A stretch of 64,000 nucleotides of DNA from Candidatus Stoquefichus sp. (GTDB lineage: Bacteria; Bacillota_I; Bacilli_A; Erysipelotrichales; Coprobacillaceae): contig JAETUM010000004.1 of NCBI GenBank assembly GCA_021768625.1, forward strand, positions 11,738 to 75,737, written 5' to 3'. The notes beneath the pieces were generated by a model that was not told where the DNA came from, ran no database searches, and was given only the letters and a program-made list of their open reading frames with translations. Below, in pieces: positions 22,271 through 28,835 of the stretch. Position 1 is the stretch's first letter, and every line of letters begins with the position of its first letter. The position numbers were made by a program, and so were the translations under genes.

Positions 22271-23128
22271 ATGGAAGTAATAAGTATAATAAGTGAAAAA
22301 GGTGGTATGGGAAAAACTACCACTTCCGTTAATTTAGGAGTTGGACTTTCAAGAAAAGGAAAAAGAGTATTAATCGTGGATGGAGATCCACAAGGAAATA
22401 GTACAAGCTATTTCTCAAAGGTTTATCATAAGTTAGATTTAAAAGAGTTCAATACATTGTCTATTCCAGATTCACCAACTCCAAGACAAGCAACTACTTT
22501 TTTGAAGAATTACATTAAGGATAGTTCTTCAAATCTTAAAGATATTAATAATGTATTATTAGAAAACAAGGAAGTTATTCATGAATGTATATATTCAACG
22601 GAATATCCTAATGTAGACATTATTCCGTCGTTTGGAACAGAGCTAATTAAAACAGATAAATTAATTGCCTCATCAACAAGATTGGCTCATAAGAAGCTTA
22701 AAAACGCTTTAAGAGAGGTCAGAAAAGAATATGATGTCGTTGTTATAGACAATGCTCCAACATTTAACAATATAACTGTAAATAGCTTATTTGCAAGCAG
22801 TAAGATAATTATTCCATTAAAGCCAGGACTCTTTGAACTGGATGGATTTATCAACACATTAAATGAATTGTATGATTTTGAGGATGATTATGAGTGTAAC
22901 TATGAAATAAAGATTTTGATGAACATGATTCCTAGAGGAAATAGACCAGATTATCAACGTTTTATAGCAAAAATCAAGGAATTGTACCCTGATTATGTTT
23001 TTAATACAACAATAGGCTATCAGGATGCCGTTGCATCACGTAGTAGTATGAAAACTAAGCTATTAATTGATTCAAAATCTAAACTAAGTGAGGATTATCT
23101 CAATTTAATTGAAGAGATTGAGATATAA
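22271..23128 (+). CDS. parA: ParA/Soj-family partition ATPase
   Basis: Deviant Walker A SEKGGMGKTTT at residues 9-19, DGDPQGN, and a VVIDNAP Walker B-like motif. Confidence 0.85.
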   Translation: MEVISIISEKGGMGKTTTSVNLGVGLSRKGKRVLIVDGDPQGNSTSYFSKVYHKLDLKEFNTLSIPDSPTPRQATTFLKNYIKDSSSNLKDINNVLLENKEVIHECIYSTEYPNVDIIPSFGTELIKTDKLIASSTRLAHKKLKNALREVRKEYDVVVIDNAPTFNNITVNSLFASSKIIIPLKPGLFELDGFINTLNELYDFEDDYECNYEIKILMNMIPRGNRPDYQRFIAKIKELYPDYVFNTTIGYQDAVASRSSMKTKLLIDSKSKLSEDYLNLIEEIEI

Positions 23129-23283
23129 AAAACATTAAAGAAAGTCTTTAATGTCAATTTAAAATCAAATCAATTACATCCTTACTAAAAACATTAAAGG
23201 TCTCCTTTAATGTCAATTTAAAATCAAATCAATTACATCCTTACTAAAAACATTAAAGGTCTCCTTTAATGTCAATTTAAAAT
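23129..23283. repeat. 2.5 tandem copies of a 59-bp repeat, each with an internal 8-9-bp inverted repeat
   Basis: CATTAAAG begins at 23133, 23192 and 23251 (period 59). Unit core CATTAAAGG-TCT-CCTTTAATG, followed by TCAATTTAAAATCAAATCAATTACATCCTTACTAAAAA. Lies between parA and the parB-like gene. Confidence 0.85.
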
Positions 23284-23321
23284 AAAGATTAGCAATTAAT
23301 AAGAAAAGAGGTAGATAAGCT

Positions 23322-24455: not shown

Positions 24456-24701
24456 ATGACAGAAGAAGCAAAAATGCAGTATATGGCAAATGGAATTATA
24501 TTAGCATGTGAGATATTAATAATGAACTCGTTTTATGCTGATAGCTATAAAACTATTAATAATGTGTCTAAAATAATTAGTGAATCAGACGTAACAAAGG
24601 AAGAGTGGAATAATTGTGAGGATGATTTTGCAAAAGAAAAAATTATTGAATTGTTTGAAAATGAAGAAGAATTTTATCAGAAGGTTGGTTGGATTAAATG
24701 A
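24456..24701 (+). CDS. hypothetical acidic protein
   Basis: 81-aa ORF with GGGAGGG SD. No motif recognised. Confidence 0.5.
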   Translation: MTEEAKMQYMANGIILACEILIMNSFYADSYKTINNVSKIISESDVTKEEWNNCEDDFAKEKIIELFENEEEFYQKVGWIK

Positions 24702-24799
24702 GTTTAGAAAGGAATATGATATTAAAAATATCAGTTAATGAACATGGGAACTTAGAGGGTGAAACTATTGCAGTAAAAAATATGGAACCAAAATTATAA
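24698..24799 (+). CDS. 33-aa hypothetical protein, translationally coupled
   Basis: ATGA start/stop overlap with the upstream gene. MSLERNMILKISVNEHGNLEGETIAVKNMEPKL. Confidence 0.3.
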   Translation: MSLERNMILKISVNEHGNLEGETIAVKNMEPKL

Positions 24800-24802
24800 A
24801 TA

Positions 24803-24865
24803 GGCTGCCGTTCCATTCAATGGACAAATACACAAAAAGGCAAACTTGCCGACGGTATCCTTCCC
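24803..24865 (+). promoter_or_regulatory. conserved ~60-nt leader motif, copy A (upstream of the SSB operon)
   Basis: GCTGCCGTTCCATTCAATGGACAAATACACAAAAAGGCAAACTTGCCGACGGTATCCTTCCC. Shares the blocks CCGTT, CAATGGACAA, ACAAAAAGG, CCGACGG and TAYCCYTT with copy B. Outer helix TGCCGT/ACGGTA. Inner hairpin GGCAA-AC-TTGCC (24839-24850) is a core copy of the element palindrome. Confidence 0.5.
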
Positions 24866-24890
24866 AATTTTATTTAGGAGGTGTAATCAA

Positions 24891-25562
24891 GTGTATGTGA
24901 TAGAGATTGATGGACATAAATTCAAAGAATATGATGCAGCTAAAGAATATTATCTATATATCATACATAAAAATAAATCTATGCATTTTAAACTTTATCG
25001 TAAAGATGAAGTAATCATAGATGAAGAATTTGCTTTAGAAGAAAGCAATCATAACTTTTTTGGTTTTGTATTTACAGCAATTCAAAAAAATATTTTCAAA
25101 AAAATTCTAGGTGGAAAAGACTCCTATGAGGATAGTGAAAAACTTACAGAACTTGAAAAAATGTATGTTCATTATTTTCAAATAAAAAATGATATAAATG
25201 ATTTAAGTATAGATTATAGCAGTAATGAAGATTACATTAACTACATATCACAAGATGAAATTAATATCATGGCTGATATGTGTGCATTATATGATATTGA
25301 AAATGGAGAACTAAAAAATAAAGATGAATTAGCGTTGGAATATATGGCTATTCCTGTAGAAGAACTAGTGTTTCAGTTTGAACAAAAATATGGTTATGAT
25401 TATCATGTACAATATTATAATGATTTGTCAAAAAGTGATAATAACTTAAAACATATATTGGATAAACATATAAAACATTATTTAGCTGTTAAAAATGATT
25501 TAAATATTTCAAAGGAAAATAAAAATACGCTTATTTTAGAGAGGAAAAAGAAAAATGTTTGA
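24891..25562 (+). CDS. hypothetical protein
   Basis: Start moved to GTG 24891 with AGGAGG 9 nt upstream; the track TTG start at 24846 lies inside leader motif A. Overlaps the SSB start by 8 nt. Confidence 0.55.
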   Translation: MYVIEIDGHKFKEYDAAKEYYLYIIHKNKSMHFKLYRKDEVIIDEEFALEESNHNFFGFVFTAIQKNIFKKILGGKDSYEDSEKLTELEKMYVHYFQIKNDINDLSIDYSSNEDYINYISQDEINIMADMCALYDIENGELKNKDELALEYMAIPVEELVFQFEQKYGYDYHVQYYNDLSKSDNNLKHILDKHIKHYLAVKNDLNISKENKNTLILERKKKNV

Positions 25563-25905
25563 TGTAGTAGTAAGTGGGAAGTTAACAAAAGATCCAGAGA
25601 TCAAGGAATTAGAAAATGGTACAGTTATTTGTAATTTTGTCATATCAAATTATGACTATCATAGGGAGAAAACAAATTTTGTTAGATGTACAGCATATGG
25701 TAAAATTGCTGAAAACTTAAAAAAGAACAAGGGTAAAGGAGATACCTTAGTTGTATCTGGTAAAGGAAGATTAGAAGAGGAGGAATATAAAGAAAAAAGA
25801 ATATATTACTTTAGTGTGACGGTCAATGAAATTGTCTATTTAAAATCATCTCAAGAAAAGAAAGATGATTTAAATGATCAATTTGAAGAAGTTAATGAAA
25901 TATAG
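25555..25905 (+). CDS. ssb: single-stranded DNA-binding protein (OB fold, short plasmid-type SSB)
   Basis: MFDVVVSGKLTKDPEIKELENGTVICNFVI...FVRCTAYGKIAENLKKNKGKGDTLVVSGKGRLEEEEY follows the SSB OB-fold pattern and has an acidic C-terminal tail. Confidence 0.75.
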   Translation: MFDVVVSGKLTKDPEIKELENGTVICNFVISNYDYHREKTNFVRCTAYGKIAENLKKNKGKGDTLVVSGKGRLEEEEYKEKRIYYFSVTVNEIVYLKSSQEKKDDLNDQFEEVNEI

Positions 25906-25906
25906 T

Positions 25907-25934
25907 TTGAAAAATGCTTGAAAAAATATATAAT
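25907..25934 (+). promoter_or_regulatory. sigma-A-type promoter
   Basis: TTGAAA (25907-25912), 16-nt spacer, TATAAT (25929-25934), about 60 nt upstream of ATG 25994. Confidence 0.4.
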
Positions 25935-25993
25935 AGTCTTAAGAAGTAATAAAGAAGATTAATTATTTTTTAACAGTGAGGAAGGTGTAAGTC

Positions 25994-26203
25994 ATGGAAG
26001 ATAATTTTGATATTTCAAAATATCTTGGTAACAACAAGATTTATTCTAAAGACCATCCTAAAAAGTATAACGAGGATGAAGATATTTATGGACCAGCATT
26101 AGTTCCTGAAGATGTTTTATCAGGACAAAGAGAATGGAAATTAACAGGTGATATTAATGATCCTAGAAACAAAGAAGGTATTTTTTATTTAGAAGAGGAG
26201 TAA
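25994..26203 (+). CDS. hypothetical protein
   Basis: 69-aa ORF with GAGGAAGG SD. No motif recognised. Confidence 0.5.
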   Translation: MEDNFDISKYLGNNKIYSKDHPKKYNEDEDIYGPALVPEDVLSGQREWKLTGDINDPRNKEGIFYLEEE

Positions 26204-26215
26204 TTCCTCTTTTTA
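26194..26215 (+). terminator. hairpin plus T-run overlapping the stop codon
   Basis: Stem AGAGGA / TCCTCT, 5-nt loop containing the TAA stop, then TTTTT. Confidence 0.45.
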
Positions 26216-26236
26216 TTATGTGGAGGAGTTTTTATA

Positions 26237-26674
26237 ATGTGTAAAATAGGAGATATTATATTAATTGAAAAATTTAAAAATGAGCATGGAAAGGATGTAG
26301 GAATGCATCCTTTTATTGTTTTGAGTACAAAGAAGGGTGTTATTGAGTCAATGCCTTTAGATATGATAGCAGTATTATTGAGTTCAATAAAAGATGAAAA
26401 GAACAGAAAAAGGAACTTATCATATGAAGTTAATTATGAAGTGAAAAAAGAAGCTGGCTTAAAAAAGGATAGTTTTGTAAAAGGAAATCAAGTATATTGT
26501 TTTGATAGTAATAAAAGCGATTATAGACGAGTAGGTAGTATTGATGTGGATATATTCATGGAAATAAGAGAACATGTAAAAATGATGTTATTACAAGGTA
26601 AAGCTCAAATTATTACAACAAATCTAGAATTGGAAGATGATTCCAAAGAATTAGAAAATGAAATGAGTTTATAG
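26237..26674 (+). CDS. PemK/MazF-fold (SH3-like barrel) toxin-like protein
   Basis: MCKIGDIILIEKF...G.HPFIVLS...IAVLLSS...GLKKDSFVKGNQVYCFD...RVGSIDVDIF parallels the MazF pattern GD(I/V)..V.F....G.E....RP.(L/V)VLS...(I/V)..P(I/L)(T/S)S...S.V...Q(I/V).T(I/V)D. The 40-aa acidic C-terminal tail is atypical. Confidence 0.5.
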   Translation: MCKIGDIILIEKFKNEHGKDVGMHPFIVLSTKKGVIESMPLDMIAVLLSSIKDEKNRKRNLSYEVNYEVKKEAGLKKDSFVKGNQVYCFDSNKSDYRRVGSIDVDIFMEIREHVKMMLLQGKAQIITTNLELEDDSKELENEMSL

Positions 26675-26675
26675 G

Positions 26676-26691
26676 ATGGCAAACTTGCCAT
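26676..26691. repeat. element palindrome copy (ATGGCAAACTTGCCAT)
   Basis: Perfect palindrome 2 nt after the stop at 26674, ending 28 nt upstream of GTG 26720. Confidence 0.9.
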
Positions 26692-26719
26692 TTATTTTAA
26701 AATAAGGAGATGATTTATT

Positions 26720-27214
26720 GTGGATGATATACGAAAGAAGGTTGAACAAAGAGCGTGGAAAGAAGGCGAAACAGTTTATCAAGTTGTAGGAGAAATGCTT
26801 GATGATTTATCTACGGAAGATTTATTAAAACACTATATTAATGAATATGGCGAATCAGGTATTAGAGAATATATTATTGAACAACTCACTATGGGTGAAA
26901 TAAATTCGTTGAAGCAAAATGAAAAAAAACAAATCCTTCAATATACTTTAGACAATCTTTTAGCTGTACCAGATTTATTTGATAATGAACATATATATGA
27001 ACTTTCTACTGAAGATATAAACAAATTTGTAAGTTTATGGACTGAAAAAAGAGATCTACCACATGTTCTTTTATTAAGTGATTGCGTTGCTTTTGATAAT
27101 ACTGATGGGAATTGTTGGGGAGAAAATTTTGAGACTAGGGAACAAGCTATTTCATATTTGCATGGTGAATCTTATGAAGAAATAATGGGATTAGAGGATG
27201 AGTTAGGAATATAA
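26720..27214 (+). CDS. acidic hypothetical protein
   Basis: 164 aa, strongly acidic (D/E-rich). AAGGAG SD. GTG start. No motif recognised. Confidence 0.55.
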   Translation: MDDIRKKVEQRAWKEGETVYQVVGEMLDDLSTEDLLKHYINEYGESGIREYIIEQLTMGEINSLKQNEKKQILQYTLDNLLAVPDLFDNEHIYELSTEDINKFVSLWTEKRDLPHVLLLSDCVAFDNTDGNCWGENFETREQAISYLHGESYEEIMGLEDELGI

Positions 27215-27216
27215 AA

Positions 27217-28182
27217 ATGGGAAACACTTTAACAAAAGAAGAAATATCAGAACGTAGAAAAAAAGTAGCAGCATATCCTATATCTACATTAGCATGTGAC
27301 TTGGGATATTCTTTAAAACCTGCAGGTAAAAATTATATTACTCTTAAAGAACATGATTCGGTTATGATAAAAAAGAGTGATAATACATATCGTCGTTTTA
27401 GTGATGGATCCTGGGGAGATACCCTTTCTTTTTTGATGTGCTTTGGAGAAGAGGCAACAAATAACAAGAAATTTAAAAGTATTAGTTATTCCTTGTTTTA
27501 TCTAGAAAAGAAATTGGGTAAATCAAACAATAATGTTTTTAAACCCCCTGTTAAAAGTCAGCAGCTAAAATCAAAGAAACTTATTTTACCTAAAGCTGAT
27601 GAGGATAATAATCAAGTTATTGATTATCTTACTGAAAGAGGAATATCTAAAAACATAATTGATATGTTTATTGAAAAAAAGCTTCTGTATCAAGAGAAGG
27701 ATTGGAAAAAGAATTGTATATTTGTTTCTTATGAAAATGATAAACCAGTATTTGCGATGAGAAGATCTAGCAATTTTAAATATAAATTTGTACAAGATAT
27801 TGAAGGGTCTGATTATAGTCGAGGTTTTTTTATAAATAACAATAGTGATACTTTAGTTGTAACTGAAGCGTGCATTGAAACTATGTCATTGATGACTTTA
27901 AAAGAAAGTGATTTTGGAGAGTTTAACAGATCATCTTTTTTCTGTATGAACAGTATATATAAAAGTGATGGGCTTATTAATACATTAAAATCTTATAAAA
28001 AAATAAATCTTGTTATTTTAGCTTTAAATAATGATGAGATGGGAAGAAAGGCTACAGAAAGAATAAAGCAACTTATTCATGAAAAGGTAAAAAATATAAC
28101 GGTTTGGATTAAACTTCCAAAAGAAGAAGGATTTGATTGGAATGACACACTATGTAAATTAAAGAAGGAGATAAAAGTATGA
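27217..28182 (+). CDS. DUF3991 + Toprim domain protein (conjugative primase/topoisomerase-like)
   Basis: N-terminal ...GKNYITLKEHDSVMIKKSDNTYRRFSDGSWGDTLSFLM matches the DUF3991 pattern. The Toprim acidic residues are in VVTEACIETMSL and ALNNDEMGRKA. Confidence 0.7.
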   Translation: MGNTLTKEEISERRKKVAAYPISTLACDLGYSLKPAGKNYITLKEHDSVMIKKSDNTYRRFSDGSWGDTLSFLMCFGEEATNNKKFKSISYSLFYLEKKLGKSNNNVFKPPVKSQQLKSKKLILPKADEDNNQVIDYLTERGISKNIIDMFIEKKLLYQEKDWKKNCIFVSYENDKPVFAMRRSSNFKYKFVQDIEGSDYSRGFFINNNSDTLVVTEACIETMSLMTLKESDFGEFNRSSFFCMNSIYKSDGLINTLKSYKKINLVILALNNDEMGRKATERIKQLIHEKVKNITVWIKLPKEEGFDWNDTLCKLKKEIKV

Positions 28183-28529
28183 AAATTGCTATGATAAAGA
28201 TAAAAAATGGTATAAGAAAAAATATACGAAAAAATCAAAAAGAATATACGTTTATTTGTCCTCTTAATGGAATTTCTGTTGGTGATTATGTAGTGTGTGA
28301 TGTTAATGCTAATAGTAAGGATATTAGAGAACTCAATTTTAAAGTTGGAAGAGTTGAAAGTCTTATTGAAGACAAGAATGAAATCAAGAAAATATTAGAA
28401 CAACAAAAACCATATTCTTATATTGTATGTAAAGTAGGAGTTAAAGACTTTGAAAAAAGGTGTAATCAAATTCAAGAGTTAAAGTCTGCAAGAATGAATA
28501 AATATCATTTGATGGCTCAAAAAAAATAG
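28179..28529 (+). CDS. hypothetical protein
   Basis: 116-aa ORF with a 4-nt overlap (ATGA) with the Toprim gene. Confidence 0.55.
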   Translation: MKIAMIKIKNGIRKNIRKNQKEYTFICPLNGISVGDYVVCDVNANSKDIRELNFKVGRVESLIEDKNEIKKILEQQKPYSYIVCKVGVKDFEKRCNQIQELKSARMNKYHLMAQKK

Positions 28530-28532
28530 AAA

Positions 28533-28548
28533 ATGGCAACCTTGCCAT
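28533..28548. repeat. element palindrome copy (ATGGCAACCTTGCCAT)
   Basis: Perfect 7+2+7 palindrome with AAA/TTTT flanks, 4 nt after the stop at 28529. Confidence 0.9.
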
Positions 28549-28565
28549 TTTTAATTTATTTGTAT

Positions 28566-28624
28566 GCTGACCGTTCAATGGACAATGATAACAAAAAGGT
28601 GAAAACCGACGGGTACCCTTTCTC
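28566..28624 (+). promoter_or_regulatory. conserved ~60-nt leader motif, copy B
   Basis: GCTGACCGTTCAATGGACAATGATAACAAAAAGGTGAAAACCGACGGGTACCCTTTCTC. Same conserved blocks as copy A. The inner hairpin is replaced by GGT-GAAA-ACC (helix kept, sequence changed). Ends 28 nt upstream of ATG 28653. Confidence 0.5.
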
Positions 28625-28652
28625 TTAAGAAGAAATAAGAAAGGAAAAAGAA

Positions 28653-28835
28653 ATGAAAAGATTAATAATTAATGAAAATAAAAGTGCATTTGAATTTAGA
28701 CGAATAGTCAATTTTAGAGCAAATGAATTAATTAAAAATGGTTATATTCTTATTAGAATTAGATATAAATTAGATAAAAAAACAAATAGATACAAACACG
28801 CTGTTATTGAGTATAAAGCTAGGACAGTCTATTAA
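28653..28835 (+). CDS. small basic hypothetical protein
   Basis: 60-aa ORF with AAAGGAAAAAG SD-like stretch. No motif recognised. Confidence 0.4.
   Translation: MKRLIINENKSAFEFRRIVNFRANELIKNGYILIRIRYKLDKKTNRYKHAVIEYKARTVY

What the first reader, a model, noticed from the sequence alone, without database searches (positions are those of the whole stretch)
24803..28624. Duplicated ~60-nt conserved leader motif with a compensatory hairpin swap (copies at 24803-24865 and 28566-28624)
Both copies share the ordered blocks GCTG, CCGTT, CAATGGACAA, ACAAAAAGG, CCGACGG and TAYCCYTT. Both can close an outer helix (TGCCGT/ACGGTA versus TGaCCGT/ACGGgTA). The internal hairpin is GGCAA-AC-TTGCC in copy A and GGT-GAAA-ACC in copy B, so the structure is retained while the sequence differs. 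Each ends 25-28 nt before a start codon; copy A precedes the operon containing ssb. It could be a cis-regulatory RNA. Alternatively, by analogy with the Frpo-type single-stranded promoters upstream of ssb, psiB and ardA in enterobacterial plasmid leading regions, it could be a hairpin active on transferred ssDNA (promoter or priming site). A relaxase or accessory-protein site is also possible.
Basis: partly seen in the sequence, partly recalled or inferred. Interest (0 to 1): 0.6.

Follow-up and report, generated by a model that had tools for sequence, protein, structure and literature searches.

The report
Conserved structured leader on conjugative elements
Two copies of a ~65-base conserved, hairpin-forming sequence sit just upstream of genes in a gut-bacterium DNA-transfer element; relatives in other elements keep its shape through compensating changes, so it is probably an undescribed RNA control element, of unknown function and rare.

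Summary
Both copies (24802-24865, 28565-28626) are real. They are the only two in the 2.9-Mb genome, and none is expected by chance.

Six further variants turned up in related conjugative elements from gut metagenomes and MAGs, giving 8 distinct sequences in about 5 lineages. All share:
- an invariant inner helix, CCGU/ACGG;
- a partly covarying outer helix;
- a nearly invariant 22-nt 5' internal loop, UUCAAUGGACAAUGAUAACAAAAAG;
- an internal hairpin with six different sequences that always pair;
- an 8-11-nt pyrimidine run complementary to the next gene's Shine-Dalgarno (SD) sequence.

The motif always lies on the gene strand. It starts right after an upstream stop codon in most contexts, and it stays with the downstream gene while the upstream context changes.

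No Rfam family matches. It does not fit an Frpo-type ssDNA promoter, a single-strand origin, conAn2/canT antitermination RNAs, a CsrA site or a conserved leader peptide.

Best reading (about 45%) is a cis-acting mRNA leader that gates translation of the next cistron, with an unidentified factor reading the conserved loop. A function on single-stranded DNA is not excluded. The family is new but narrow in distribution, so interest is moderate.

The parts
24802..24865 (+). Motif copy A (whole element, including the pyrimidine run)
   Evidence: CM R1, built without this copy, scores it 33 bits, E about 1e-7.
24802..24811 (+). Copy A, P1 5' strand (AGGCUGCCGU). It starts 2 nt after the upstream stop codon TAA at 24797-24799.
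   Evidence: MFE fold (z = -2.56); pair counts.
24812..24824 (+). Copy A only: extra hairpin P2 (UCCAU-UCA-AUGGA), created by a 5-nt insertion (CCATT) relative to the B type.
   Evidence: In B-type copies the same AUGG can only pair with the P1 strand CCGU.
24817..24838 (+). Copy A, conserved 5' internal loop (UCAAUGGACAAAUACACAAAAA)
   Evidence: Alignment A7.
24839..24850 (+). Copy A, P3 hairpin GGCAAACTTGCC. This has the same core as the element-wide palindrome family.
24852..24861 (+). Copy A, P1 3' strand (ACGGUAUCCU)
24858..24865 (+). Copy A, pyrimidine run TCCTTCCC. It is complementary to the SD AGGAGG at 24876-24881 of ORF223, which starts with GTG at 24891.
   Evidence: Folds (P(unpaired SD) 0.25).
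28565..28626 (+). Motif copy B (whole element, including the pyrimidine run)
   Evidence: R1 score 90.5 bits.
28565..28574 (+). Copy B, P1 5' strand (UGCUGACCGU)
28575..28597 (+). Copy B, conserved 5' internal loop (UCAAUGGACAAUGAUAACAAAAA)
   Evidence: Identical in winB, L068, L070 and L072; one change each in L037 and L042.
28598..28607 (+). Copy B, P3 hairpin GGU-GAAA-ACC
28609..28618 (+). Copy B, P1 3' strand (ACGGGUACCC)
28616..28626 (+). Copy B, pyrimidine run CCCTTTCTCTT. It forms 7 bp with AGAAAGG, which overlaps the SD (28640-28645) of the 60-aa gene (ATG at 28653).
   Evidence: P(unpaired SD) 0.34.
28529..28552 (.). Palindrome/terminator-like hairpin directly upstream of copy B. It belongs to a separate family and is not part of the motif. 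In L037 it forms the boundary of a gene-cassette insertion.
24891..25905 (+). Genes downstream of copy A: ORF223 (24891-25562) and ssb (25555-25905)
   Evidence: Pfam SSB, 9.8e-16.
28653..28835 (+). 60-aa basic protein gene downstream of copy B. It is the constant downstream partner of all B-type copies.
   Evidence: AF2 pLDDT 88.7, beta-alpha-beta-beta topology.

Best explanation
The motif is a cis-acting structured segment of the polycistronic mRNA of a family of Gram-positive conjugative elements. It works as a 5' leader for the next cistron.

Anatomy. A closing helix P1 has an invariant CCGU/ACGG core plus a variable outer part. P1 and a small variable hairpin P3 hold a 22-nt, nearly invariant A-rich strand (UUCAAUGGACAAUGAUAACAAAAAG) as a large one-sided internal loop. 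Directly 3' of P1 lies an 8-11-nt pyrimidine run that can pair with the Shine-Dalgarno region of the following gene.

Most likely mechanism (inferred). The fold, or an unidentified protein or ligand bound to the conserved loop, decides whether the pyrimidine run is free to occlude the SD. That would set translation of ORF223-ssb (copy A) and of the 60-aa gene (copy B). In most contexts the 5' strand of P1 begins 0-3 nt after the upstream stop codon, so a terminating ribosome would open P1. This may couple the switch to upstream translation.

Shown here: conservation, covariation, strand, position, and linkage to the downstream gene.

Inferred only: that the motif acts as RNA, that it controls translation, and that a trans factor exists.
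For: - Real and homologous copies.
- Eight distinct sequences in about 5 lineages come from independent samples.
- Structure: 82% of cells are paired against 18-54% for slid partners. Seven pairs carry changes on both sides. 0 of 500 shuffles reach the observed covariation score.
- P3 has six different sequences and all of them pair.
- RNAalifold independently recovers inner P1 and P3.
- Strand: 10 G.U cells pair only on the + strand. One of these positions (columns 10/66) is G.U in all six non-A sequences. The 6 A.C cells lie mostly at the helix ends.
- In L068, L070 and L072, A-to-G changes opposite a fixed U keep a 7-bp outer pairing, AGAGRRG/CUUCUCU.
- The motif is always on the same strand as the flanking genes, in every context.
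- For the B type, upstream context differs three ways (116-aa gene plus palindrome; an inserted cassette in L037; a 352-aa gene in L068/L072). The downstream 60-aa gene stays constant.
- For the A type, the upstream gene differs (DUF3846 versus a remnant), and homology starts only about 45 nt upstream.
- A pyrimidine run is present in all 8 sequences.
- The SD is predicted mostly paired in 5 of 7 leaders (P(unpaired) 0.25-0.34). The median for 37 other genes of the element is 0.55, and 27% of those are at or below 0.34.
Against:
- The structure is small and weak. The consensus energy is -6.85 kcal/mol.
- Copy B alone does not adopt P1 in its MFE fold (z = +0.81).
- Five B-type copies carry an A x G mismatch in P1.
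- The inner P1 never varies, so it carries no covariation signal.
- There are few sequences, they are related, and alignment A7 was fitted to the model.
- SD occlusion is only modestly enriched and the leaders are not independent. Two leaders (L072, L025) show an open SD.
- No trans factor is identified.
- A same-genus genome (G060) has the 60-aa gene with no motif.
- All genes of these elements are co-oriented, so constant orientation fits a strand-specific ssDNA role equally well.
Confidence: 0.45

Rival explanations
1. The motif acts as single-stranded DNA. It would fold on the transferred or rolling-circle strand and mark a site for priming of complementary-strand synthesis (sso/ssi-like), for SSB or primase loading, or for transcription from ssDNA.
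For: - The elements are conjugative (MobL relaxase, T4CP, VirB4) and carry ssb and a DUF3991-Toprim primase between the two copies.
- Orientation is strictly constant, as it is for sso elements (PMC4595007).
- The hairpins covary, which also fits ssDNA.
- GAAA loops closed by C-G (L070, L072) are also very stable in DNA (own knowledge).
Against: - As DNA, the motif region folds no better than shuffles for copy A (z = +0.2 and +0.6).
- No helix is long enough to rebuild a -35/-10 duplex.
- Known ssos are about 200 nt with three stem-loops (PMC4595007).
- If the relaxase gene enters last, the usual case (own knowledge), the transferred strand is the minus strand. On that strand the 10 G.U cells become A.C mismatches.
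- The pyrimidine run/SD complementarity and the linkage to the downstream gene have no role in this model.
Confidence: 0.15
2. The motif is an RNA processing or stability element. It could be an endonuclease entry site (RNase Y type) in the A-rich loop beside a hairpin, or a small self-cleaving ribozyme. Either would separate the upstream and downstream cistrons and set their relative levels.
For: - The position is intercistronic.
- A highly conserved single-stranded A/U-rich stretch is flanked by variable helices. This is the conservation pattern typical of ribozyme cores and of structure-guided RNase sites (own knowledge).
- The 5' hairpin left after cleavage could stabilise the downstream mRNA.
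Against: - No Rfam ribozyme family matches, even at E up to 10.
- No pseudoknot or tertiary partner for the loop is conserved.
- There is no direct evidence of cleavage.
Confidence: 0.12
3. The motif is a processive antitermination or attenuation RNA, like HK022 put. Once transcribed it would modify RNA polymerase in cis so that it reads through the many small hairpin/T-run terminators inside the long operon.
For: - Two paralogous ~65-nt structured copies lie in one orientation in a mobile element, as putL and putR do.
- The window element has 12 palindromic hairpin/T-run sites between genes.
- RNA-based antitermination is established for Gram-positive conjugation operons (PMC8191782, PMC11658703).
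Against: - conAn2 (260-600 bp) and canT (341-452 nt) are far larger and unrelated.
- The L068/G057-type elements have the motif but only two hairpin sites, both more than 11 kb away.
- Copy B lies after, not before, its nearest terminator-like hairpin.
- The motif is not placed near the start of the operon.
Confidence: 0.08
4. The motif is a double-stranded DNA site: an operator, a complex centromere or another protein-binding site near the partition genes.
For: - It always lies within about 2 kb of parA/parB.
- In L042 it sits between parA and the parB-like gene.
- Long blocks are conserved at the sequence level.
Against: - A duplex site gives no reason for the variable spacer to be self-complementary in all six versions, or for outer P1 to covary.
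- It gives no reason for strict co-orientation with genes or for an SD-complementary pyrimidine run.
Confidence: 0.07
5. The conservation reflects a short leader peptide (uORF MDNDNKK...) starting at the conserved AUG in CAAUGGAC. The peptide, or its translation, would relay ribosomes to the next gene.
For: - The AUG is invariant.
- The frame is open for 14-26 codons in all copies.
- L068 and L072 have a good SD 6-10 nt upstream (-11.3 and -8.0 kcal/mol).
- The uORF stop abuts or overlaps the main start in L068 and copy A.
- The one loop change in L042 is synonymous (GAU to GAC).
Against: - The window's own two copies and L037 have no SD (-1.1 to -2.4 kcal/mol).
- Copy A carries a 1-nt indel, so the shared ACAAAAAGG block is read in a different frame from the B type.
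- P3 changes are compensatory for pairing, not conservative for the peptide (VKT versus TKV).
- Another frame is often just as open.
Confidence: 0.08

Closest known systems
SD-sequestering mRNA leaders (translational riboswitches and protein-binding operators)
   Same: The conserved nucleotides concentrate in an internal loop held by covarying helices. An anti-SD-like pyrimidine run follows, 12-50 nt before the SD. The motif is always 5' of a gene and on the same strand.
   Different: No Rfam family matches. The downstream genes are mobile-element establishment genes with no metabolic theme. The position is intercistronic, right after a stop codon, rather than promoter-proximal. No ligand or protein is known.
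HK022 putL/putR antitermination RNAs
   Same: Two paralogous structured RNAs of about 65-70 nt lie in one orientation in the operons of one mobile element and are presumed to act in cis.
   Different: put RNAs have two stem-loops, sit just downstream of promoters and act on RNA polymerase. This motif is one helix with a 22-nt one-sided loop and a small hairpin. It is not tied to promoters or terminators in its relatives.
Frpo/ssi single-stranded DNA promoters of F and ColIb-P9 leading regions (PMC11541004; Masai and Arai 1997)
   Same: It lies upstream of ssb in a conjugative element, in one fixed orientation, and includes a hairpin.
   Different: Frpo is a long hairpin that rebuilds a duplex -35/-10 promoter plus UP element. 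This motif has only 10-bp and 3-5-bp helices, no promoter hexamers in a stem, and no stability as DNA.
conAn2 (pLS20 family) and canT (Tn916) antitermination RNAs
   Same: They are cis-acting non-coding RNA in conjugation operons of Gram-positive elements that contain internal terminators.
   Different: Their sizes are 260-600 bp and 341-452 nt. conAn2 needs the ConAn1 protein. There is no sequence or structural likeness.
Single-strand origins (ICEBs1 sso1, pBAA1/pTA1060 sso)
   Same: They are orientation-specific, structure matters more than sequence, and they occur on conjugative or RCR elements.
   Different: They are about 200 nt with three stem-loops. This motif is about 65 nt, weak as DNA, and tied to the downstream SD.

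Membership tests
Any Rfam 15 family | Score at or above the family's gathering threshold | tested here: not met
   The whole window gives only two tRNAs at gathering thresholds. Permissive scans of both copies give only chance-level hits, E at least 0.26 and 20-90 bits below threshold.
Frpo-type ssDNA promoter | A long ssDNA hairpin whose stem rebuilds -35 and -10 hexamers at promoter spacing | tested here: not met
   DNA folds of both strands show no long hairpin. Copy A gives z = +0.2 and +0.6. The helices are 10 bp and 3-5 bp with a 22-nt unpaired strand. No hexamer pair lies within a stem.
Frpo-type ssDNA promoter | Sequence similarity to known Frpo/ssi elements | not tested
   No reference Frpo sequence was fetched. 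blastn of copy A against 72,556 plasmids found nothing.
Frpo-type ssDNA promoter | The transferred strand is the template for the downstream genes | not testable with these tools
   The nick site and transfer polarity are unknown.
Single-strand origin (ssoA/ssoT/sso1) | About 150-300 nt of extensive ssDNA secondary structure (three stem-loops in pBAA1/sso1) | tested here: not met
   The motif is about 65 nt with two short helices and no DNA-fold stability. Features taken from PMC4595007.
Single-strand origin (ssoA/ssoT/sso1) | Orientation-specific reduction of ssDNA intermediates | not testable with these tools
   This needs a plasmid assay.
conAn2 / canT antitermination RNAs | A 260-600-nt (conAn2) or 341-452-nt (canT) region at the start of the conjugation operon, with ConAn1 encoded upstream | tested here: not met
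   Size and position differ. No ConAn1-like gene was recognised next to either copy (Pfam).
CsrA-regulated leader | CsrA is present in the host or element, with GGA sites in the leader and at the SD | tested here: not met
   GGA occurs in the loop (AUGGA) and at the SDs, but Pfam CsrA (PF02599) finds nothing in the 2.92-Mb genome. The positive controls were found.
Structured cis-regulatory mRNA leader (generic kind) | Helices supported by covariation | tested here: met
   7 pairs with changes on both sides, and 0 of 500 shuffles reach the covariation score. One search gives independent RNAalifold support.
Structured cis-regulatory mRNA leader (generic kind) | Fixed orientation 5' of genes and linkage to the downstream gene | tested here: met
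   All 8 sequences lie on the gene strand. Upstream context varies while the downstream gene is kept.
Structured cis-regulatory mRNA leader (generic kind) | An expression platform (SD occlusion or a terminator) | tested here: inconclusive
   The pyrimidine run is conserved in all copies. The SD is predicted paired in 5 of 7 leaders, against 27% of control genes at the same cut-off. Two leaders are open.
Structured cis-regulatory mRNA leader (generic kind) | It is transcribed, and expression changes when it is mutated | not testable with these tools
Element-wide palindrome family (TGGCAAnnTTGCCA) | A full 14-16-bp palindrome with A/T flanks | tested here: not met
   Only copy A's P3 (and that of L025, L037A and L068) carries the 12-nt core GGCAAnnTTGCC. 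The other copies have unrelated P3 sequences, so the motif is a separate family.

The most novel reading that the evidence does not exclude
The motif could be a new class of small sensor or catalytic RNA specific to conjugative elements. The invariant 22-nt loop would form a binding pocket for a cellular signal or element-encoded protein, or a self-cleavage core. It would switch on establishment genes (ssb operon, 60-aa gene, par genes) at a defined moment, such as entry into a new host, possibly coupled to ribosomes terminating on the upstream cistron.
Probability: 0.12. Interest if true: 0.7.

Novelty: new variant of a known kind. Interest (0 to 1): 0.45.

Why it matters
How Gram-positive conjugative elements time the expression of their establishment genes (ssb, partition and anti-defence neighbours) is poorly understood. 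The known RNA devices, conAn2 and canT, are large and act on transcription. A compact, covariation-supported leader that travels with different downstream genes would be a new and easily testable handle on post-transcriptional control in these elements. It would also be a new entry for RNA family databases. Its impact is limited by its narrow distribution. The exact-pattern scan of 185,579 species genomes found only chance hits (the window's own genome may have been left out of that scan). The covariance model found true copies in only two genomes, the window's own and G057, in samples of 401 genomes each from its order, class and phylum.

Tried and rejected
- **Rfam.** Gathering and permissive scans gave nothing.
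- **Exact-pattern scans.**
  - Genome contigs gave only chance hits: a Stutzerimonas coding region and a Ruminococcaceae promoter, TTGACA..TACAATGG.
  - Metagenome contigs gave one true homolog, L042; the rest were chance.
  - Viral contigs gave chance hits only. L065/L066 lie between minus-strand phage genes, and L090/L091 score 15-17 bits.
- **Plasmid database.** blastn with copy A and tblastn with the 60-aa and 352-aa proteins gave nothing useful.
- **Weak CM hits (22-28 bits) in order, class and phylum samples.**
  - Three (L073, L075, L087) are mutually homologous stretches of one conserved protein-coding gene, which looks like nicotinate phosphoribosyltransferase by eye; that identification was not tested.
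  - The rest are single low-scoring hits without the motif's helices or gene context, several containing the AT-rich word TTGACAATGAT, plus A-run/hairpin/U-run terminators in small genomes.
  - None is a family member.
- **Sigma-70 promoter in or over the motif.** The scan is uninformative in this AT-rich DNA (78 found, 74 expected). No hexamer pair is conserved across copies.
- **Minus-strand terminator reading of P3 plus CTTTTTGT.** Stems of 3 bp in the B type are too weak, and this does not explain the rest of the loop.
- **Pseudoknot partner for the loop.** None is conserved.
- **Trans complement of the loop elsewhere in the genome.** None found.
- **CsrA.** Absent from the genome.
- **The 60-aa protein as obligate RNA-binding partner.**
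  - Its fold (beta-alpha-beta-beta, pLDDT 89) has no significant PDB match. The best hits are ribosomal S6/RRM-like at E > 0.1.
  - G060 has the protein without the motif.
- **Conserved leader peptide.** Rejected as the cause of conservation.
- **IS200/IS605-type ends or integron attC.** There is no transposase between the copies, relatives carry a single copy, and the core sites do not match (sequence inspection).

Full report
**Setting**

The window is low-GC DNA (25-32% in 4-kb blocks). From about 20.9 kb onward it carries a Gram-positive conjugative element next to two tRNA genes. Its genes are:
- ParA, a ParB-like protein, ORF223, SSB, a PemK-like toxin and a DUF3991-Toprim primase;
- a SipW/TasA-type cluster, a SpaA/thioester adhesin and a T4SS pilin;
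- ArdC, DprA, a DNA methylase, VirB4 and a cell-wall hydrolase;
- a TIR protein, a MobL relaxase and the coupling protein.

Essentially all genes are on the + strand.

**Checking the observation**

- The three-block pattern CAATGGACAA / ACAAAAAGG / CCGACGG occurs exactly twice in the window, against 0 in 100 shuffles.
- It occurs nowhere else in the 2.92-Mb genome.
- The distances to the start codons are 25 and 28 nt.
- Copy A precedes ORF223 and ssb.
- Only the GCTG block fails to hold up in relatives.

**Finding relatives**

The element family is rare. ORF223, the primase and the 60-aa protein downstream of copy B have only a handful of homologs among 5.8 billion proteins.

Their contigs gave:
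- near-identical A-type copies with a loop change (L025, L026);
- a diverged B-type copy in L037;
- two new B-type variants upstream of the 60-aa homolog, in L068 (an NCBI MAG) and L070.

A degenerate-pattern scan of metagenome contigs gave one more lineage, L042 from a badger-gut co-assembly. There the motif lies between parA and a membrane-protein/parB-like pair on a relaxase-bearing contig.

A covariance model (R1) was built from copy B and four relatives.
- It finds copy A at 33 bits, E about 1e-7.
- It finds one more copy in a genome of the same family (G057 = L072).
- Its weaker hits in 401-genome samples of the order, class and phylum are conserved coding sequence, isolated low-scoring AT-rich matches or terminators.
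- The exact-pattern scan of 185,579 species genomes gave only chance matches.

The family therefore has 8 distinct sequences in about five lineages, all from gut-type Firmicutes elements. Only the window-type element has two copies.

**Anatomy (alignment A7)**

- **P1.** An invariant inner helix CCGU/ACGG is extended by up to six more pairs that vary. At columns 11/65 the pair is C-G in L042, G.U in the A type and A x G in the B type. At 10/66 it is G.U or U-A. At 8/68 it is G-C, U-A or G.U.
- **Internal loop.** A 22-23-nt 5' strand, UUCAAUGGACAAUGAUAACAAAAAG, is identical in four B-type sequences, has one change each in L037 and L042, and is partly different in the A type (…ACAAAUACACAAAAAG). 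The 3' side of the loop is a single G.
- **P3.** A hairpin with six different sequences, all self-complementary:
  - GGCAAACTTGCC
  - GGCAAATTTGCC
  - GGTGAAAACC
  - GGTGAAAGCC (U.G)
  - GACGAAAGTC
  - GGCTATTCAACTAGCC
- **Pyrimidine run.** A run of 8-11 nt starts inside or just after the P1 3' strand in every sequence.
- **P2, copy A only.** A 5-nt insertion (CCATT) gives a separate hairpin, UCCAU-UCA-AUGGA. In the B type the same AUGG can pair only with the P1 strand CCGU. P1 and this hairpin are therefore mutually exclusive in the B type and compatible in copy A.

**Is the structure more than chance?**

On A7 the named structure has 82% of cells paired, against 18-54% when the 3' partners are slid by 1-3 columns. 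Seven pairs change on both sides (3 of 500 shuffles reach that). The covariation score is reached by 0 of 500 shuffles. RNAalifold independently predicts inner P1 plus P3, with two covarying pairs.

There are caveats:
- only eight related sequences are available;
- the alignment was fitted to the model;
- the consensus fold is weak (-6.85 kcal/mol);
- copy B alone does not fold into P1.

**Which strand and which molecule?**

Ten cells are G.U and pair only on the + strand. They include the position that is G.U in all six non-A sequences, and one-sided changes that keep pairing (L037 P3, L072 outer P1). Six cells are A.C and would pair only on the minus strand; most of these lie at the outermost positions.

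In L068, L070 and L072 a purine run directly after the stop codon (AGAGAGG, AGAGAAG, AGAGGAG) can pair with the fixed CUUCUCU through A-U or G.U.

As DNA, neither strand of copy A folds better than shuffles. Copy B's signal comes from the neighbouring palindrome and the pyrimidine/purine helix, not from the motif.

These points favour RNA of the + strand, but only modestly.

**Context**

The motif is always co-oriented with the genes.
- It starts 0-3 nt after an upstream stop codon in copy A and in the L068/L070/L072 type.
- It starts 12 nt after the stop codon in L042.
- In copy B and L037 it follows a palindromic hairpin.

Upstream context changes while the downstream gene is kept. B-type copies always precede the 60-aa gene, but they follow a 116-aa gene plus palindrome (window), a three-gene cassette (L037) or a 352-aa gene (L068, G057). 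A-type copies keep ORF223-ssb downstream, while the upstream gene is DUF3846 or only its last codons. The motif therefore behaves as a 5' module of the downstream cistron.

In minimum-energy folds the pyrimidine run pairs with the downstream SD region in copies A and B, L037, L068 and L042. The mean probability that the SD is unpaired is 0.25-0.34 in five of seven leaders. The median for 37 other genes of the element is 0.55, and 27% of those are at or below 0.34. Two leaders (L072, L025) are predicted open. This is suggestive, not decisive.

**Interpretation**

I commit to a cis-acting mRNA leader that gates translation of the next cistron through the pyrimidine run. The conserved loop would be the recognition surface for an unidentified factor. 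Opening of P1 by ribosomes terminating on the upstream gene is a possible input. My confidence is about 0.45 for the general statement and lower for the details.

**Alternatives considered**

- **Frpo-type ssDNA promoter: rejected on its defining feature.** Frpo needs a long hairpin that rebuilds a duplex -35/-10 promoter (PMC11541004).
- **sso: unlikely.** Known ssos are about 200 nt with three stem-loops (PMC4595007). Some other ssDNA role cannot be excluded, because all genes are co-oriented.
- **conAn2 and canT: unrelated.** They are several-fold larger (PMC8191782, PMC11658703).
- **put-like antitermination: poorly supported.** Relatives with the motif have almost no internal hairpin terminators.
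- **CsrA: excluded.** The genome has no CsrA.
- **Conserved leader peptide: does not explain the conservation.** The window's copies lack an SD for it. Copy A reads the shared ACAAAAAGG block in another frame. P3 changes preserve pairing, not the peptide.
- **The 60-aa protein as partner: only a lead.** It is basic and folds confidently as beta-alpha-beta-beta. It has no significant structural match. A same-genus genome has it without the motif.
- **Processing site or new ribozyme: compatible but untested.** This fits the conservation pattern but has no direct evidence.

**Novelty and limits**

The motif matches no Rfam 15 family and none of the described RNA devices of conjugative elements. 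It is best called a new, narrowly distributed variant of the structured cis-regulatory leader kind.

The assignment to RNA and any regulatory effect therefore remain inferences.

Noticed in passing
window 23928-62147 (12 sites, for example 26678, 28535, 30199, 44179); also L031:11646 and L037:7731/8984: The 14-bp palindrome TGGCAAnnTTGCCA occurs 12 times, only inside the element, and nowhere else in the 2.92-Mb genome. One copy lies inside the parB-like gene. A CATGGCAAATTTGCCATG copy exists in a Thomasclavelia-like relative whose primase is only 44% identical. The number, palindromy and parB-internal copy recall parS/KorB-type operator sets as much as terminators. Copy A's P3 carries the 12-nt core.
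   Followed up: partly
L037:7726-9005 versus window 28529-28552: A three-gene cassette, one gene on the minus strand, is inserted in L037 exactly between two palindrome copies. The window has a single palindrome there. The palindromes therefore mark cassette boundaries.
   Followed up: partly
window 28653-28835; L037:9105-9287; L068:6098-6280; L042:743-922(-); G060 (L094:1501-1677): This is a small basic protein family of about 60 aa with no Pfam hit. AF2 gives pLDDT 88.7 and a beta-alpha-beta-beta topology, with only weak likeness to ribosomal S6/RRM/ACT half-folds. It is present in every element that has the motif, but also in G060, which lacks the motif.
   Followed up: partly
window 24698-24799: The 33-codon ORF just upstream of copy A looks like the C-terminal remnant of the DUF3846 gene that occupies this position in L025, L037 and L038. 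DNA homology starts about 45 nt before the stop.
   Followed up: partly
L042:2132-3052 (minus strand): parA on the badger-gut contig is split into 66-aa and 227-aa ORFs. This is a frameshift or an assembly error.
   Followed up: no
L042:2020-2050 (minus strand): An 8-bp hairpin, GGUGGAAA-UG-UUUCCACC, lies between the motif's pyrimidine run and the next SD in L042 only. It makes that leader much more structured (z = -3.2).
   Followed up: no
L094:1451-1500 (G060): In the same-genus genome, the 60-aa homolog is preceded not by the motif but by a short hairpin, TAGTCA-TATC-TGACTA, plus the SD. This is a different leader for the same gene.
   Followed up: no
window 23128-23304: Three tandem 59-bp repeats lie between parA and the parB-like gene. 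They are a candidate centromere or iterons and are unrelated to the motif.
   Followed up: no
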